This document shows, piece by piece, positions 410-36,290 of a stretch of DNA of 45,821 bases. Numbering within the stretch: the stretch's first letter is position 1; every line of letters starts with the position of its first letter. The notes beneath the pieces are model-generated. The model was not told the DNA's origin and did no database searches. It saw only the letters and a list, made by a program, of their open reading frames with translations. The stretch is from a virus (taxonomy: Duplodnaviria > Heunggongvirae > Uroviricota > Caudoviricetes): the IMG/VR virus record IMGVR_UViG_2695420343_000003, one strand, 5' to 3'. The translations under genes and the position numbers were made by a program.

Positions 410-499
410 TTTAACATTTAAGCTGATGACCACCACGCTTTTTATTGACCATTTTGCACGCAAACTGGAAAACCTGGCGTCGTCATCTATTCTTAAAGA

Positions 500-602
500 G
501 CAAGGCAACTAAGCCTGCATTAATGCCAACTTTTAGCGCACGGCTCTCTCCCAAGAGCCATTTCCCTGGACCGAATACAGGAATCGTATTCGGTCTTTTT
601 TT
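500..602 (+). ncRNA. sdsR: SdsR (RyeB) small RNA, sigma-S dependent; 3' end overlaps prophage attL
   Basis: Sequence gcaaggcaactaagcctgcattaatgcc...ccgaatacaggaatcgtattcggtcttttttt matches my recollection of E. coli SdsR/RyeB, ending in a terminator hairpin and T-run; lies between yebY and pphA homologs as in K-12. Confidence 0.7.
577..596 (+). repeat. attL core (direct repeat with attR), inside sdsR terminator
   Basis: acaggaatcgtAttcggtct here vs acaggaatcgtGttcggtct at 44729..44748 (19/20 identical); integrase gene lies 140 bp away. Confidence 0.6.
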
Positions 603-733
603 AATTGTATTTAAAATCAATCGGTTGCAAACGTCTTCCCGAAATTCCCCGAAATTTACTCGAATTTCTGTATTCCGGTCTTTTTTGGTTATATCACAAC
701 CAAAACGCATTTAACAATCCATTTACGTTAAAA

Positions 734-7635: not shown

Positions 7636-8059
7636 AATTATCTCCATTTTTACAAATGAATTTTGTCGATGCGGTGCCTGGTGCCTCCAGGTGACGTTAA
7701 CCAGTTAACAATTAACGCCGGATAATCCACCCATAACACTGATGCTTTTAACTGTTCCGCGTGCGCTTAGCCGCATTCACCGCATCACAAAATTCACTTT
7801 AAAAAGGGGCGGCAGGGCAGCCACGGAGTAGAACTGATGCCGCCAAAGACTACACAAAGCAATGTCGTTATTTACAACCGGAGGCGCACTCCCACCATTT
7901 AAATTTAACAGACAAGACCGACTCTTTATGGATACCGGAAATGCGCCTTCGTGTTGTGCCCGGTTTTATTTCACCACCTCCGGGCTTTGGTGGTATCTTT
8001 ACTGGAGTTCTCACACAACCAGTAAGGAAATGAATATGCCAACGTATCTCGCCAGAGTA

Positions 8060-31182: not shown

Positions 31183-32328
31183 ATGGCACAGGGCTTGCCT
31201 GTATCAAACGTTGTTAATGTTGATGTGATCATGTCGCCGCGTGCAGCATCAGGGCGAAATTTTGGTGCATTACTCATTCTCGGCCCGTCCACAATCATTC
31301 CGGTAAGTGAGCGCATTCGCCGTTATTCTGCCGCGGAAGATATTGGAAAAGATTTTGGCGTGGAATCACCAGAATATAAGGCTGCGCAGGTGTTTTTCTC
31401 ACAATCACCGAAACCTCAGGAGGTTTTTGTTGGTCGTTGGGTGAAAACGAAGGGTGACAGCGAACAGGCCACGCCTGAGACGCTGGAGCAGGCTGTGAAT
31501 GCCATGCTCGATTATACTTCATGGTATGGGCTGGGGATTGCAGACGATGAAGATATTCCGGATGCAGACTGGCTGAAAGTGGCTGCGGCGATCGAATCCT
31601 CTTCTGTAAGCCGTATTCTGGCGATTACGACAAGCGATGATAAATGCCTGCAGACTGCATCCAGCGATGATTTGGCATCAAAACTGAAAACCGCCGGATA
31701 TTCACGCAGTTTTATTCAGTATTCATCGGGTAATAAATACGCTGCGTTATCTGCATTTGGCCGGGTATTCACGGTTAATTTCAATGGCAGTAATACCGCG
31801 ATTACGCTCAAGTTTAAGCAGGAGCCGGGTGTCGGGTATGAAACACTGACAGTCAGCCAGGCATCGGCACTTGATGCAAAAAACTGCAATGTATTCGTGT
31901 ACTACCAGAATGATACGGCTATCCTCCAGCAGGGAGTGATGGCTAACGGCGATTTCTTTGATGAACGCCACGGCCTGGACTGGTTACAGAATTATGTGCA
32001 GACCAACCTCTATAACCTGCTTTATACCAGCACCACGAAAGTTCCCCAGACTGAAGCCGGTATTACCCGACTGTTATCAAATGTTGAAAAATCACTGGAT
32101 CAGGCCGTTCAGAATGGACTGATTGCTCCGGGCGTATGGAACGGGGGCGACCTTGGTCAGTTGTCATCAGGTGACACACTGCCCAAAGGTTATTACGTAT
32201 ACGCCCAGCCGCTGGATGAACAGGCACAATCAGAACGTGAAGCCCGTAAGGCTCCGGTGATTCAGGCTGCAATAAAACTTGCAGGCGCGGTTCATTACGC
32301 TGACGTACAGATTAACGTTGTTCGCTAA
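31183..32328 (+). CDS. Tail sheath protein (DUF3383-like)
   Basis: 381 aa, first of sheath-tube-chaperone-tape measure order typical of contractile tails. Confidence 0.6.
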
Positions 32329-32338
32329 GGGGAAGTGA

Positions 32339-32779
32339 ATGTCTACCTATTCTTTTATGGATGTCACTGCGACGCTGACCGGCCCGACCGGTTCGATTGA
32401 CCTCGGGTACGGTTCTGCAAGTTCTGAAGAGGGGATTGTGGTTGCGATGGGCGGTCCTAAAAACACCATGACCATCGGTGCTGATGGCGAAGTGATGCAC
32501 AGCCTCCATGCAGATAAAAGCGGGACGATTACCGTTAACCTTCTGAAGACATCACCGACAAATAAAAAATTGTCGCTGGCGTATAACGCACAGAGCCAGT
32601 CTTCTGCCACATGGGGGAATAACGTTATCGTGATCCGCAACAAGGTCAGCGGCGACATCATCACGGCACGCAGTGTTGCGTTCCAGAAACAACCGGATAA
32701 TGCCAACGCTAAAACCGGTAATACGATGCCGTGGGTGTTTGACTGCGGCAAGATTGACCAGGTTCTCGGGGAGTTTTAA
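32339..32779 (+). CDS. Tail tube protein
   Basis: 146 aa directly after sheath gene. Confidence 0.55.
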   Translation: MSTYSFMDVTATLTGPTGSIDLGYGSASSEEGIVVAMGGPKNTMTIGADGEVMHSLHADKSGTITVNLLKTSPTNKKLSLAYNAQSQSSATWGNNVIVIRNKVSGDIITARSVAFQKQPDNANAKTGNTMPWVFDCGKIDQVLGEF

Positions 32780-32782
32780 TAC

Positions 32783-33235
32783 ATGGAATTCGAAATCAAA
32801 GGCGTGAAATATCGCGTGGCAAAACTCAGCGTTTTTGACCAGCTGAAAGTGACCCGCAAACTTCTGCCGGTACTGGCGGGAATGATGTCAGATTTCGGGA
32901 GCATTCGCTCCCGTTTGCCTGCTGACGGCAAAATCGACACCGTGAAATTCGAGCAGTTAAAACCGGTGTTTGAAACCATGCTCCCGCGTATCGCTGAGGA
33001 ACTGTCTTCCCTGACCGAAGATGACACCGATGCGATTATTCATCCCTGTCTTGCGGTGGTATCGCGGCGTCATATGGACGGATGGGTGCCGGTATTTACC
33101 CAGGGCGAACTGATGTTTGATGATATTGACCTGCTGGTCATGCTGCAGCTGGTGGCGCGGGTGGTCGCCGATTCGCTGGGAAATTTTTTGCCTACACCCC
33201 TTACCAGCACGACGCAGAGCCTGCAACAGGGCTGA
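32783..33235 (+). CDS. Tail assembly chaperone (G-like)
   Basis: 150 aa immediately upstream of tape measure; contains slippery T_TTT_TTG at 33184..33190 with open -1 frame to 33432. Confidence 0.6.
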   Translation: MEFEIKGVKYRVAKLSVFDQLKVTRKLLPVLAGMMSDFGSIRSRLPADGKIDTVKFEQLKPVFETMLPRIAEELSSLTEDDTDAIIHPCLAVVSRRHMDGWVPVFTQGELMFDDIDLLVMLQLVARVVADSLGNFLPTPLTSTTQSLQQG

Positions 33236-33432
33236 CGTTTAACAGCCTGCCGGACGGGCTGTCCTACCTTCTCAATCCGGTTGACGCCGGGTTAATTCCT
33301 TATACAGCACTTAAAGATGGCTCTGTCGATTTGTACGACATTGCTCTCTTGAATGACCATCTGGCGGTAAAAGCGGATAACCAGCGGCGCATTGAGAAAT
33401 GGAGAGAGGATAATGAACGCCGAGACTATTAA
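33184..33432 (+). other. Candidate -1 programmed frameshift extension of tail chaperone (GT-like product)
   Basis: Heptamer t ttt ttg in zero frame; -1 frame open from 33184 to TAA at 33430..33432 (…AYTPYQHDAEPATGLTFNSLPDGLSYLLNPVDAGLIPYTALKDGSVDLYDIALLNDHLAVK…). Confidence 0.5.
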
Positions 33433-35401
33433 AGATTTCCTTGTCTCGCTTGGCTTCAGTGTGGATGATGCAGGAGCGAAAAAATTCGGTTCTGTCCTCG
33501 CCGGTACAACTGCAAATGTCATCAAAATGGGGCTGGCCGTCGAAGGAGCGGCGCTGTCCGTGGTGGCCTTCACGGCTAAGATCGCCTCCGGCCTGGATAA
33601 TCTTTACTGGGCGTCACAGCGCACCGGCGCGACAGTCCAGGGAATTCAGTCTATTGGCTATGCGGTTTCGCAGGTTGGCGGCAGCGTGGACGCTGCGCGA
33701 TCTTCTCTGGAAAACCTCTCCCGGTTTATTCGTAATAATCCCGGGGCGGAGGGATTTCTGAATCGTCTGGGGGTACAGACACGGGATGCCAGCGGTAACA
33801 TGCGTGACATGGCCGCTATTTTTACAGGGGTAGGCCAGAAGCTCAGCGACATGCCGTATTACCGTGCTAACCAGTATGCGCAGATGCTGGGCATTGACGA
33901 AAATACCCTGTTGGCTATGCGTCGCGGTGTGGGTGGCTTCTCCGGGCAGTACAGCGCAATGGCGAAAGCTATCGGCTTCAATGCTGACGAGGCGGCCAGA
34001 AGCTCCAACAAATTTATGACCTCCCTGCGTGAGTTTGGCGCGATGGCAGGCATGGCCCGTGACAAAATCGGCTCTAATCTTGCGGGTGGGCTTGCGGGTT
34101 CGCTGGACACACTGCGCCGCCATATCCTGGACAACTTCCCGCGTATCGAGCAGACCCTGACGAAAGCCATAAAAGGCATTCTGGCGCTCGGGGATATTAT
34201 CGGGCGGCTGTTCTTCAGACTGATTGAGGGGACATCAGGCCTCATCACCTGGTGGCAATCGCTGGATAAGCAAACGCGGGAGTTGATCTCGCTGTTTGGC
34301 GCACTGACGATTGCGCTGCGCATTCTGAACAGTACGTTCTGGATGTCGCCGATTGGCCTCATTACCGCGCTGGCGGCGGGGATTGCCCTCCTGTGGGAGG
34401 ACTATCAGACCTGGAAGGAAGGCGGCGACAGCCTGATTGACTGGGGCAAGTGGAAACCGGAGGTTGATGCCGCGCTGAAGATGGTTCGTGACCTTAAAAC
34501 GACCGTTAACGACCTGGTGAAAGCGCTGGCGAAACTGCTCAATATTGACCCCAAATCATGGTCCCTGAAGTGGGATTTCAGCAACTTCATCGACCAGATG
34601 GGCGAATTCAGCAAAATGCTGAACATGATCGCCGACCTGCTCAACGCTATCAAAGATGGCCGCTGGGCTGATGCCGTCAGCATCGGCAAACAGATACTTA
34701 ATCAGGGCAGCGAAAATCCGTCAGCGATGCCGATGGTTACAGACAGCGCTAACAGTACTGCCGACTGGATTAAAGAGCACTGGGGATTTGATCCCCGCAG
34801 TGTGGGCCGGACGGTACGCGGCTGGTTTGGTGATGATGAGCCGGAACAACATGCACAGGCTACGAAACGAGGAGAACGGAATAACAATCCGGGAAACCTT
34901 AATTTTGCTGGTCAGGCAGGGGCTTCTCTTGAACGCCCGGGCGGGCGATTTGCCAGATTTGAAACTGCCTTTGATGGATTACGGGCTCTTGCTCGTCAGT
35001 TAATGCTGTACGCCGGACGGGGAATAAACAGTGTGGAGAAAATTATCTCTACCTGGGCACCTGCGTCTGATAATAACAACACAACTGCGTATATCAGGGC
35101 TGTATCGCAACGACTGGGAGTGGATCCCCGGGCTGCCCTGAATATGAGCGATCCGCAAACCATGTCAGCATTGATGAGCAGCATTATCCAGCATGAGAAT
35201 GGAAGAAATATCTATTCTCGGGAGCTGATTAATAAGGCTGCCGTGGCGGGAATTAGTGGCAAAGTGACAGAGGTTAACCAGCAAAATACCTACCACATTT
35301 ACGGTGGCGGAGATCCGCACGCTGTCGGTAATGAGGTTGCACGTCGGCAACAGTCTGCAAATGCTCAGGTCATGCGAAGTAATCAGGTGAGGGTGGGTTA
35401 G
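33413..35401 (+). CDS. Tail tape measure protein
   Basis: ~662 aa from ATG with GGAGAGAGG RBS; Gly/Ala-rich helical regions; position after chaperone frameshift. Confidence 0.8.
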   Translation: MNAETIKDFLVSLGFSVDDAGAKKFGSVLAGTTANVIKMGLAVEGAALSVVAFTAKIASGLDNLYWASQRTGATVQGIQSIGYAVSQVGGSVDAARSSLENLSRFIRNNPGAEGFLNRLGVQTRDASGNMRDMAAIFTGVGQKLSDMPYYRANQYAQMLGIDENTLLAMRRGVGGFSGQYSAMAKAIGFNADEAARSSNKFMTSLREFGAMAGMARDKIGSNLAGGLAGSLDTLRRHILDNFPRIEQTLTKAIKGILALGDIIGRLFFRLIEGTSGLITWWQSLDKQTRELISLFGALTIALRILNSTFWMSPIGLITALAAGIALLWEDYQTWKEGGDSLIDWGKWKPEVDAALKMVRDLKTTVNDLVKALAKLLNIDPKSWSLKWDFSNFIDQMGEFSKMLNMIADLLNAIKDGRWADAVSIGKQILNQGSENPSAMPMVTDSANSTADWIKEHWGFDPRSVGRTVRGWFGDDEPEQHAQATKRGERNNNPGNLNFAGQAGASLERPGGRFARFETAFDGLRALARQLMLYAGRGINSVEKIISTWAPASDNNNTTAYIRAVSQRLGVDPRAALNMSDPQTMSALMSSIIQHENGRNIYSRELINKAAVAGISGKVTEVNQQNTYHIYGGGDPHAVGNEVARRQQSANAQVMRSNQVRVG

Positions 35402-35988
35402 TGGATATTCTCTCTACACTTTTTCATCAGCAGAGCAGAAAAATAGGAATGATTGTTCCCAGTGTTGTTATTTCAGAGAAGCATACAGATATGCTTGAAA
35501 TAACAGAGCATCCGGTAGAGGTTGGGGCCGCTGTCGCTGATCATGCCTATAAAAAACCGTCAGAAGTGGTGATGGAGGTTGGTTTCGCCGGTGGCGGCGC
35601 ATTGCTGGATTTTGCCAGTAATCTGACGGCTACCAGCCTGCTCGGCCTGAGTCCTCAGCAGACGTATCAGGAGCTACTGGATCTGCAGGAAAGCCGTATC
35701 CCCTTCGATGTGGTAACCGGTAAACGACTGTACAGCAACATGTTGATCCGGGCGCTGGAAGTGACGACGGACAAGACAACCGAAAACGTCCTGTCCGCCG
35801 TCCTCACCCTGAGGGAGGTCCTTATCTCCCGGACACAGCAGATTACCGTCGCGGATAAAACCAACATGAAGGAAGGGGCCAGCACGTCGGCGGTACAGAA
35901 TAGCGGCAACAAAACCACAAAGCCTCCAGATACTTCACTGCTGAAAAGCATCACGGGTAACGTGGCGTCATTACTGGGGGGCGGCTAA
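35401..35988 (+). CDS. Tail protein (hypothetical)
   Basis: GTG start overlapping TMP stop (TAGTG); 195 aa. Confidence 0.45.
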   Translation: MDILSTLFHQQSRKIGMIVPSVVISEKHTDMLEITEHPVEVGAAVADHAYKKPSEVVMEVGFAGGGALLDFASNLTATSLLGLSPQQTYQELLDLQESRIPFDVVTGKRLYSNMLIRALEVTTDKTTENVLSAVLTLREVLISRTQQITVADKTNMKEGASTSAVQNSGNKTTKPPDTSLLKSITGNVASLLGGG

Positions 35989-36290
35989 TGACAATTCAGG
36001 AAATTCCGCTGACAGCGGACAACCAGCAGTTCAGCATCGTCTTAGGTGGTGTTACTTGGCGGATTAGCATCATATGGCGCGATCTGTACTGGATTATGGA
36101 CCTGCAGAACGACAGAGGGGAGCCGGTAATCTCCGGTATTCCTCTCGTCACTGGTGCCGACCTGCTGGCGCAGTACGCCTGTATGGGGCTTGGTTTTAAG
36201 CTGGTGGTGGTCTGTGATGACAACACACAGGATTACCCCACAAAAACTGACCTGGGCGGTCGCAGCCATTTACTGGTATCAACGGAGTAA
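35988..36290 (+). CDS. Tail protein (hypothetical)
   Basis: TAATG-coupled; 100 aa. Confidence 0.45.
   Translation: MTIQEIPLTADNQQFSIVLGGVTWRISIIWRDLYWIMDLQNDRGEPVISGIPLVTGADLLAQYACMGLGFKLVVVCDDNTQDYPTKTDLGGRSHLLVSTE

What the first reader, a model, noticed from the sequence alone, without database searches (positions are those of the whole stretch)
33184..33432. Candidate -1 programmed ribosomal frameshift in the tail assembly chaperone
Seen in sequence: heptamer T_TTT_TTG sits in the zero frame near the chaperone 3' end, and the -1 frame is open from there to a TAA at 33430..33432, overlapping the tape-measure start (33413). Established knowledge: conserved -1 frameshifting producing G and GT chaperones immediately upstream of the tape-measure gene is near-universal in long-tailed phages. 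The A-site codon UUG is less canonical than AAG or UUU, so efficiency is uncertain.
Basis: partly seen in the sequence, partly recalled or inferred. Interest (0 to 1): 0.45.

Follow-up and report, generated by a model that had tools for sequence, protein, structure and literature searches.

The report
Tail chaperone -1 frameshift site
This is the ordinary "G/GT" programmed -1 ribosomal frameshift that long-tailed phages use to make two tail-assembly chaperones from one start codon; comparison with relatives supports it strongly, but RefSeq annotates the downstream part as a separate small gene.

Summary
The 150-aa chaperone ORF (32783..33235, Pfam Phage_TAC_15) contains T_TTT_TTG in phase at 33184..33190. 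The -1 frame is open from there to the TAA at 33430..33432, 20 nt into the tape-measure gene (ATG 33413).

- The -1 extension matches Pfam DUF6889 (E = 1e-20).
- Across 75 distinct relatives its third codon positions vary most, as in coding sequence.
- It is 76-82 aa long in all but two of the 77 loci analysed.
- It has no conserved start codon.
- The slip-site codons are frozen at synonymous sites: GGA 70/75, AAT 71/71, TTT 74/74, TTG 69/70.

- T_TTT_TTN is the most conserved (74/75).
- A_AAT_TTT belongs to the class reported as most efficient in E. coli.
- G_GGA_AAT is the only one left in a few lineages that still have an intact -1 ORF.

No downstream RNA structure is conserved. An upstream GGTGG is a possible Shine-Dalgarno-like stimulator.

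The same frameshift is annotated in the homologous gene of Klebsiella phage Mulock, and phage P2 uses TTTTTTG. This is a routine member of a known kind, and nothing here was tested experimentally.

The parts
32783..33235 (+). Zero-frame tail assembly chaperone ('G'), 150 aa
   Evidence: ORF. Pfam Phage_TAC_15 PF21822 E = 2e-31 and phrog_1688 'tail assembly chaperone' E = 2e-65. The AF2 model's best BFVD matches are tail assembly chaperones, E = 8e-9.
33178..33190 (+). 13-nt slippery tract G_GGA_AAT_TTT_TTG. It holds three overlapping in-phase heptamers: G_GGA_AAT (33178-84), A_AAT_TTT (33181-87) and T_TTT_TTG (33184-90).
   Evidence: Sequence. Synonymous codon choice is frozen in 75 distinct relatives: GGA 70/75, AAT 71/71, TTT 74/74, TTG 69/70, against roughly 50:50 for other Phe and Asp codons. 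Heptamer presence is 66/75, 69/75 and 74/75 respectively.
33190..33432 (+). -1 frame extension ('T' part), 80 codons after a slip on T_TTT_TTG, ending at TAA 33430-33432. The frameshift product is join(32783..33190,33190..33432), 216 aa.
   Evidence: Open frame. Length is 76-82 aa in all but two of the 77 loci analysed. Entropy by codon position is 0.77/0.65/1.39 in the -1 frame. There is no conserved start codon.
33298..33414 (+). DUF6889 domain within the -1 extension
   Evidence: Pfam PF21829, E = 1.2e-20, 73.4 bits (cut-off 23.9), residues 39-77 of the 82-aa -1 peptide. phrog_4364, E = 2e-23.
33159..33164 (+). Candidate upstream Shine-Dalgarno-like stimulator GGGTGG (GGNGG class). This is an inference.
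   Evidence: GGTGG is present at this position in 62/75 relatives. The codons that carry it are biased beyond amino-acid need: the rare CGG in 50/68 and GTG in 68/75. [quoted passage not shown] PMC4066793 treats GGNGG at 6-17 nt as stimulatory.
33413..35401 (+). Tape measure protein gene, overlapped by the last 20 nt of the -1 extension
   Evidence: phrog_2276 'tail length tape measure protein', E = 1.5e-282. The ATG and upstream GGAGAGAGG are conserved in relatives.
32339..32779 (+). Tail tube gene immediately upstream of the chaperone
   Evidence: Pfam PF11681 (KPP10_Orf10; called Phage_Tube_PhiTE), E = 9e-61.
31183..32328 (+). Tail sheath gene
   Evidence: Pfam DUF3383 (PF11863; called E217_gp31_N), E = 7e-101. 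phrog_205 'tail sheath'.

Best explanation
A minority of ribosomes translating the chaperone gene slip one nucleotide backwards within GGGAAATTTTTTG (33178-33190). They then continue in the -1 frame to TAA 33430-33432. The result is a 216-aa 'GT'-type protein: the chaperone body fused to a DUF6889 C-terminal domain. Most ribosomes stay in frame and make the 150-aa 'G' protein.

By analogy with lambda gpG/gpGT and P2 E/E+E', the shared N-terminal part would coat the tape-measure protein. The -1 domain would recruit the tail tube subunit. Neither product would end up in the virion.

Shown here: the two ORFs and their phase, the coding status of the -1 frame, conservation of the slip tract beyond amino-acid need, and the absence of an independent start codon.

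Inferred: that slippage happens at all, its efficiency, which heptamer is used, and the role of each domain.

T_TTT_TTN is the most conserved heptamer and the likely principal site. By published E. coli rules A_AAT_TTT should slip at least as well. G_GGA_AAT appears to suffice in a few lineages. No downstream RNA stimulator is present. An upstream GGUGG may stimulate slippage on the first two heptamers.
For: Gene order is sheath, tube, chaperone, tape measure.

The G part matches PF21822, and the -1 part matches PF21829 at 73 bits and phrog_4364.

Across 75 distinct loci from the window, three phages (Mulock, SEN34, YP3) and enterobacterial genomes:
- T_TTT_TTN is present in 74 of 75.
- The -1 extension is 76-82 aa and usually ends 11 nt into the tape-measure gene.
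- Protein homology in the zero frame stops exactly at residue 136, the slip site.
- Synonymous codon choice is frozen at GGA-AAT-TTT-TTG, while other Phe and Asp codons are near 50:50.

The -1 frame has third-position variability like a real gene (1.39 against 0.77 and 0.65 bits). This holds even within the 13 codons where both frames are open.

No start codon is conserved in the -1 frame, and PGAP has to invoke a CTG start at 33259.

The Mulock homologue is annotated 'tape measure chaperone frameshift product'.

P2 E/E+E' uses TTTTTTG without a hairpin (PMC3091744). The lambda G/GT mechanism and its wide conservation are reviewed in PMC5009743.
Against: There is no experimental evidence for this family: no junction peptide, no reporter assay, and no paper mentions DUF6889.

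U_UUU_UUG is not among the most efficient motifs in E. coli, where heterogeneous A-site codons such as UUG and AAU shift less well (PMC4066793).

No downstream stimulatory structure was found. Fold z-scores were -0.7 to +1.1, the mean z over 78 loci was -0.16, and the RNAalifold consensus energy was -1.7 kcal/mol. Efficiency may therefore be low.

The AF2 model of the T part has low confidence (pLDDT below 50), so its fold and binding role are unverified.

The relatives share ancestry, so the conservation counts are not independent events.
Confidence: 0.9

Rival explanations
1. DUF6889 is an independent small gene, translated from its own (possibly non-canonical) start codon. This is how RefSeq/PGAP annotates it (window 33259..33432, CTG start).
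For: PGAP calls a 57-aa 'DUF6889 family protein' CDS in E. coli genomes. Databases hold 46-78-aa stand-alone entries named 'DUF6889 family protein' or 'NTP pyrophosphohydrolase'. phrog_4364 is a 54-position family of such calls.
Against: The window has no ATG, GTG or TTG in the -1 frame before codon 47 of the 80-codon extension, so the ORF listing finds no ORF of 40 aa or more there. Start-codon positions differ between relatives, and one relative (L148) has none at all. Coding periodicity and amino-acid conservation (aRtPrqrd..P) begin right at the slip site, upstream of any called start. The frozen synonymous sites in the slip tract have no explanation under this model.
Confidence: 0.03
2. 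The shift to the -1 frame is made at the RNA level. RNA polymerase stutters on the T6 run and adds one U, and normal translation of the edited mRNA gives ...SLGNFFAYTPYQ...
For: A DNA allele with T7 gives exactly this in-frame fusion and exists in public assemblies (P0001/L267; CDL28562.1 in E. coli ISC7). The A/T-rich tract AAATTTTTT would give a weak RNA-DNA hybrid. The product would be indistinguishable from a ribosomal slip on the first two heptamers.
Against: From established knowledge, efficient transcriptional slippage in bacteria uses runs of about 9 or more A or T, and T6 is short. The tract is conserved in codon phase, including GGA, which lies outside the homopolymer. The last letter of the run varies (G, A, T, C) while the X_XXY_YYZ form is kept. 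Lineages with a broken run (AAT ATT TTG) keep G_GGA_AAT and an intact -1 ORF. That pattern fits ribosomal slippage and does not fit RNA polymerase slippage.
Confidence: 0.05
3. The heptamer and the open -1 frame are coincidental, and the 177-nt gap before the tape-measure gene is non-coding.
For: In-phase slippery heptamers are common: 51 in this window, including two other in-phase TTTTTTG.
Against: The -1 peptide hits a Pfam family at 73 bits. The -1 frame shows codon periodicity. ORF length and slip tract are conserved in 73-74 of 75 relatives.
Confidence: 0.01

Closest known systems
Phage lambda gpG/gpGT programmed -1 frameshift (Levin, Hendrix and Casjens 1993; Xu, Hendrix and Duda 2004, 2013, 2014; reviewed in PMC5009743)
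   Same: The gene sits immediately upstream of the tape-measure gene. [quoted passage not shown] The -1 extension is about 80 aa and has no start codon of its own. No RNA stimulator is needed. G_GGA_AAN is part of the tract here, and lambda uses G_GGA_AAG.
   Different: This is a myovirus (sheath plus tube) tail module, whereas lambda has a siphovirus tail. The chaperone belongs to Pfam Phage_TAC_15 and the extension is DUF6889. No Pfam family other than PF21822 was reported for the chaperone at E up to 0.1. Similarity to lambda gpG itself was not tested. The tract ends in U_UUU_UUG, and the G_GGA_AAU heptamer carries U rather than G as its last letter.
Phage P2 E / E+E' frameshift (Christie et al. 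2002, as cited in PMC3091744)
   Same: Both are contractile-tailed temperate enterobacterial phages. The slippery heptamer is the identical TTTTTTG, in a chaperone gene next to the tape-measure gene. No downstream hairpin is present.
   Different: No match to any family other than PF21822 was reported, so the resemblance appears analogous rather than homologous. P2 E is 91 aa and E+E' is 142 aa, against 150 and 216 aa here. This tract adds two further overlapping heptamers upstream.
Klebsiella phage Mulock CPT_Mulock_014/015 (GenBank MN098327)
   Same: It is a true homologue: the chaperone is 58% identical, GGGAAATTTTTTG is identical, and the gene order is the same. The GenBank record already annotates a joined 'tape measure chaperone frameshift product'.
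   Different: That annotation is by inspection only. The genome announcement (PMC6856289) does not mention the frameshift. The exact join point could not be recovered.
dnaX / IS911-type -1 frameshifting with an upstream Shine-Dalgarno-like stimulator
   Same: [quoted passage not shown] That is within the 6-17 nt range treated as stimulatory in PMC4066793.
   Different: No downstream hairpin is present. The spacing to the best-conserved heptamer (about 20 nt) falls outside that range. The stimulatory role is untested.

Membership tests
G/GT-type tail assembly chaperone programmed -1 frameshift (Xu, Hendrix and Duda 2004) | The chaperone gene lies between the major tail (tube) gene and the tape-measure gene. 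| tested here: met
   Tube 32339-32779, chaperone 32783-33235, tape measure 33413-35401.
G/GT-type tail assembly chaperone programmed -1 frameshift (Xu, Hendrix and Duda 2004) | A second ORF in the -1 frame overlaps the 3' end of the first, has no start codon of its own, and ends at or just inside the tape-measure gene. | tested here: met
   The -1 frame is open to TAA 33430-33432. No start codon is conserved. The -1 ORF ends usually 11 nt into the tape-measure gene in relatives and 20 nt here.
G/GT-type tail assembly chaperone programmed -1 frameshift (Xu, Hendrix and Duda 2004) | An in-phase X_XXY_YYZ slippery heptamer in the overlap, conserved among homologues beyond amino-acid constraint. 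| tested here: met
   T_TTT_TTN in 74/75, A_AAT_TTT in 69/75, G_GGA_AAT in 66/75. Codon choice is frozen at GGA, AAT, TTT and TTG.
G/GT-type tail assembly chaperone programmed -1 frameshift (Xu, Hendrix and Duda 2004) | The downstream frame is under protein-coding selection. | tested here: met
   Entropy by codon position is 0.77/0.65/1.39 in the -1 frame. Pfam DUF6889 at 73 bits.
G/GT-type tail assembly chaperone programmed -1 frameshift (Xu, Hendrix and Duda 2004) | Both the short and the frameshifted product are made from one start codon at a fixed ratio. | not testable with these tools
   This needs a protein gel, mass spectrometry or a reporter assay.
G/GT-type tail assembly chaperone programmed -1 frameshift (Xu, Hendrix and Duda 2004) | Both products are required for tail assembly and are absent from mature virions. 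| not testable with these tools
   This needs genetics and virion proteomics.
Pfam Phage_TAC_15 (PF21822) | The score reaches the family's gathering threshold (22 bits). | tested here: met
   109.5 bits, E = 2.1e-31, residues 6-138.
Pfam DUF6889 (PF21829) | The score reaches the family's gathering threshold (23.9 bits). | tested here: met
   73.4 bits, E = 1.2e-20, on the -1 frame peptide.
P2 E/E+E' chaperone family | Sequence homology to P2 gpE. | tested here: not met
   hmmscan against Pfam at E up to 0.1 returned only PF21822 for the chaperone. The profile search of PDB sequences found nothing significant. The shared TTTTTTG is a functional resemblance, not family membership.
SD-stimulated -1 frameshift (dnaX / IS911 type) | [quoted passage not shown] | tested here: inconclusive
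   GGTGG at 33160-33164 lies about 14 and 17 nt before heptamers 1 and 2, but about 20 nt before T_TTT_TTG. It is conserved in 62/75 relatives with biased codons. Its function is untested.
Hairpin- or pseudoknot-stimulated -1 frameshift (IS3 / viral type) | A stable conserved structure starts 4-10 nt downstream of the heptamer. | tested here: not met
   Fold z-scores were -0.42 and -0.67 for the window and above +1 for Mulock. The mean z over 78 loci was -0.16. RNAalifold found only a 5-bp hairpin about 57 nt downstream of the tract, -1.7 kcal/mol.

The most novel reading that the evidence does not exclude
The 13-nt tract works as a tandem, fail-safe slip site. Ribosomes get three successive chances to shift -1 (G_GGA_AAU, A_AAU_UUU, U_UUU_UUG), helped by an upstream GGUGG:anti-SD contact for the first two. 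Together these set a higher or more robust G:GT ratio than any single heptamer would. The result would be two GT isoforms differing at residue 136 (Phe or Leu). Lineages that lost one or two of the heptamers would then be natural titration mutants.
Probability: 0.3. Interest if true: 0.35.

Novelty: new member of a known kind. Interest (0 to 1): 0.2.

Why it matters
The main value is for annotation. In 337 of 5,426 complete E. coli genomes, and in many other Enterobacterales, the -1 part is filed as a stand-alone 'DUF6889 family protein'. That entry has an invented CTG start, and older records call it 'NTP pyrophosphohydrolase'. The evidence here says DUF6889 is the frameshift-encoded C-terminal ('T') domain of Phage_TAC_15 chaperones.

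This assigns a role to a domain of unknown function and corrects the gene model for a widespread family of temperate myovirus tail modules (SEN34/Brunovirus-like and Mulock-like).

The nested triple heptamer, and the natural variants that keep only one heptamer, offer a convenient system for asking how slip-site redundancy sets the chaperone ratio. The underlying biology is well established.

Tried and rejected
(1) Downstream stimulatory RNA structure: none found in single-sequence folds, a 78-locus z-score survey or RNAalifold.

(2) Solved-structure relatives. The profile search of PDB sequences found nothing significant. Foldseek of the AF2 model against PDB gave only E above 5. The T part of the model has pLDDT below 50, so it gave no structural insight into DUF6889.

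(3) NCBIfam has no model for the fused protein.

(4) Recovering the exact join used in the Mulock record by exact-sequence look-up of both possible products: neither is in the collection.

(5) The first viral-contig scan with the single protein returned only relatives of 95% identity or more, which are useless for conservation tests.

(6) The 15-nt pattern scan for the AAT ATT TTG variant returned mostly random hits. Only 5 of 101 were in chaperone context.

(7) A second apparent frameshift candidate, G_GGG_GGC at 35976-35982, has a -1 frame open for 102 codons. That frame is simply the next gene, and the heptamer is absent in Mulock and SEN34. Rejected.

(8) The rival readings (independent small gene, transcriptional slippage, chance) were considered and ranked low. 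See the rival explanations.

Full report
**1. The observation**

The chaperone ORF runs 32783..33235 (150 aa). Around the site the zero-frame codons are CTG GGA AAT TTT TTG CCT, giving ...SLGNFLP. The T6 run occupies 33184-33189 and G is at 33190, so T_TTT_TTG (33184-33190) is in X_XXY_YYZ phase.

Translation of the -1 frame is open from about 20 codons upstream of the site to TAA 33430-33432. That is 20 nt past the tape-measure ATG at 33413. All coordinates in the finding are correct.

Two details were missed or wrong:
- The tract G_GGA_AAT_TTT_TTG (33178-33190) contains three overlapping in-phase heptamers: G_GGA_AAT, A_AAT_TTT and T_TTT_TTG.
- Classical tandem slippage on T_TTT_TTG gives the junction ...SLGNFL-AYTPYQ.

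**2. Is it more than chance?**

A heptamer alone is not. In about 12,000 codons of plausible genes in the window there are 51 in-phase XXXYYYZ heptamers, including two other in-phase TTTTTTG.

Only the chaperone's three heptamers have a -1 frame (80-82 codons) that runs past the zero-frame stop. The single exception is G_GGG_GGC at 35976-35982, whose -1 frame is simply the next gene. That heptamer is not conserved in Mulock or SEN34. The longest -1 run after any of the other 47 heptamers is 58 codons.

**3. What the two frames encode**

- The zero-frame protein matches Pfam Phage_TAC_15 (PF21822, E = 2e-31) and phrog_1688 'tail assembly chaperone'.
- The 82-aa -1 peptide matches Pfam DUF6889 (PF21829, 73.4 bits against a cut-off of 23.9, E = 1e-20) and phrog_4364.
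- The flanking genes are a tail sheath (DUF3383/E217_gp31_N), a tail tube (KPP10_Orf10/Phage_Tube_PhiTE) and the tape-measure protein (phrog_2276, E = 1e-282). The gene therefore sits in the canonical position.
- An AF2 model of a naturally fused homologue gave a moderately confident G domain and a low-confidence T part. Its best matches among predicted viral structures are tail assembly chaperones (E = 8e-9). PDB searches found nothing.

**4. Relatives**

Near-identical DNA occurs in:
- 337 of 5,426 complete E. coli genomes;
- Escherichia phages vB_EcoM-689R2 and its relatives;
- Salmonella phage SEN34 (Brunovirus);
- Yersinia phage YP3;
- more distantly, Klebsiella phage Mulock.

All of those I read carry the identical GGGAAATTTTTTG.

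The Mulock GenBank record already annotates a joined CDS, 'tape measure chaperone frameshift product'. Its genome announcement does not discuss it.

RefSeq/PGAP instead calls a separate 57-aa 'DUF6889 family protein' at window 33259..33432, which begins with CTG. Older database entries call the same small ORFs 'NTP pyrophosphohydrolase'. No paper in the library mentions DUF6889.

**5. Comparative test**

A scan of one genome per species returned 80 loci at 38-86% protein identity. They span Enterobacter, Citrobacter, Pantoea, Erwinia, Serratia, Photorhabdus, Arsenophonus and others. Adding the window and three phages (Mulock, SEN34, YP3) and removing duplicates and broken genes left 75 distinct loci.

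- (a) The zero-frame protein is invariant through ...VVADSLGNFL and then diverges abruptly. Many tblastn matches end exactly at residue 136.
- (b) T_TTT_TTN is present in 74/75, A_AAT_TTT in 69/75 and G_GGA_AAT in 66/75. All three are present in 65 loci.
- (c) Synonymous choice is frozen at GGA 70/75, AAT 71/71, TTT 74/74 and TTG 69/70. In the same alignment other Phe codons are 40:35 and 27:32 (TTT:TTC), and Asp codons are near 50:50. Background usage favours AAC over AAT, and GGA makes up 18% of Gly codons.
- (d) The -1 extension is 76-82 aa in all but two of the 77 loci analysed. L116 is truncated and L141 reads through. The extension usually ends 11 nt into the tape-measure gene.
- (e) Aligned by the -1 peptide, nucleotide entropy is 0.77/0.65/1.39 bits at -1-frame codon positions 1/2/3. 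This is like the upstream chaperone body in its own frame (0.71/0.52/1.23). It also holds in the 13 codons where both frames are open (0.95/0.86/1.35).
- (f) Start-capable codons in the -1 frame occur at inconsistent positions, and one locus has none.

Together these results show that the -1 frame is translated starting from the slip tract.

**6. Which heptamer?**

T_TTT_TTN is the best conserved. It is the only heptamer left in five loci: the Erwinia and Kalamiella loci (GGC GGT TTT TTG and similar) and the Arsenophonus locus L148. Its last letter varies (G, T, A, C) while the slippery form is kept. P2 E/E+E' is reported to shift on the same TTTTTTG without a hairpin (PMC3091744).

The systematic E. 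coli study points in a partly different direction. It found that homogeneous A-site codons shift best and lists H_HH.U_UU.Y among the most efficient motifs. That class includes A_AA.U_UU.U. U_UU.U_UU.G is listed as efficient only in eukaryotes (PMC4066793).

A third clue comes from lineages in which the T run is broken (AAT ATT TTG): Salmonella L105 and viral contigs L204, L210, L222 and L233. They retain G_GGA_AAT and an intact 77-80-aa -1 ORF.

My reading is that the tract is redundant. T_TTT_TTG is the principal conserved site and the upstream heptamers contribute. Only a junction peptide can settle this.

**7. Stimulators**

No downstream structure was found:
- Fold z-scores were -0.42 and -0.67 for the window and +1.0 and +1.1 for Mulock.
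- The mean z over 78 loci was -0.16.
- RNAalifold found only a weak 5-bp hairpin about 57 nt downstream of the tract.

Upstream there is a second patch of synonymous constraint at codons -9 and -8: CGG 50/68, although CGG is rare in the background, and GTG 68/75. This patch forms GGGTGG at 33159-33164, and GGTGG is present in 62/75 loci. [quoted passage not shown] PMC4066793 treats GGNGG at 6-17 nt as experimentally stimulatory. This is a candidate Shine-Dalgarno-like stimulator for the first two heptamers. It is an inference only.

**8. Rival explanations**

- **Independent DUF6889 gene.** This fails on the lack of a conserved start codon, on coding signal that reaches back to the slip site, and on the unexplained frozen codons.
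- **Transcriptional slippage on T6.** This would give the FF-A product, and a DNA T7 allele with the in-frame fusion exists (P0001/L267; E. coli ISC7 CDL28562.1). Against it, T6 is short for RNA polymerase stuttering (established knowledge). The conservation is also codon-phased and extends outside the homopolymer.
- **Chance.** This is excluded.

**9. Comparison and novelty**

Functionally this is the lambda G/GT and P2 E/E+E' mechanism (PMC5009743). It meets every sequence-level membership criterion. The biochemical criteria (two products at a fixed ratio, requirement for assembly, absence from virions) cannot be tested here.

No match to any chaperone family other than PF21822 was seen, so the likeness to P2 appears analogous. 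It is homologous to the annotated Mulock case.

I rate it a new member of a known kind with low interest. Three things are modestly new:
- the assignment of DUF6889 as the frameshift-encoded T domain of Phage_TAC_15 chaperones;
- the widespread mis-annotation of DUF6889 as a separate gene;
- the nested triple heptamer with a possible upstream Shine-Dalgarno-like element.

Noticed in passing
L267 997-1011 (Logan SRR23924998); proteins P0001, P0147 (CDL28562.1, E. coli ISC7): Some E. coli assemblies carry a T7 run instead of T6 (GGGAAATTTTTTTGCC). This puts chaperone and DUF6889 in one 213-aa in-frame protein with both Pfam domains. It could be a real 'GT-only' allele, which would probably be tail-defective, or a homopolymer sequencing error.
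   Followed up: partly
window 33259-33432; L005 3477-3650: RefSeq/PGAP annotates a 57-aa 'DUF6889 family protein' that starts at a CTG codon. Older NCBI entries name the same small ORFs 'NTP pyrophosphohydrolase'. Both look like artefacts of not modelling the frameshift.
   Followed up: yes
window 35976-35982: G_GGG_GGC lies in phase three codons before the stop of the 35401..35988 baseplate gene, and its -1 frame is open for 102 codons. That frame is just the next gene (35988..36290). The heptamer is absent in Mulock and SEN34, so it is probably coincidence.
   Followed up: yes
L105 (Salmonella enterica s1); L204, L210, L222, L233 (IMG/VR): In several diverged lineages the T run is interrupted (AAT ATT TTG, protein SLGNIL), yet G_GGA_AAT and a full-length -1 ORF are kept. 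These are natural single-heptamer variants.
   Followed up: partly
L116, L141, L093, L160: These are exceptions that look like decaying prophages. The -1 ORF is truncated at 37 aa in L116. In L141 it reads on for 256 aa. The chaperone ORF itself is broken in the two Apirhabdus loci (L093, L160).
   Followed up: no
window 462-606, 2168-2346, 7807-7858: Rfam hits above the gathering score: SraC/RyeA and SdsR/RyeB (chromosomal sRNA pair), RalA (Rac-type antitoxin sRNA) and DicF. The window is therefore an E. coli prophage with lambdoid (Rac/Qin-like) early genes joined to this myovirus tail module. This resembles the description of Mulock as a temperate myophage with lambda-like functions (PMC6856289 abstract).
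   Followed up: no
L097 (assembly labelled Chryseobacterium sp. 18061); L164 (labelled Bacillus sp. AFS073361): Chaperone loci 70-78% identical to the window appear in assemblies labelled as non-enterobacterial genera. This is probably contamination or mislabelled contigs.
   Followed up: no
window 33392 versus 33413: The mechanical ORF list starts the tape-measure ORF at TTG 33392. The ATG at 33413, with GGAGAGAGG upstream, is conserved and is the start annotated in all relatives.
   Followed up: partly
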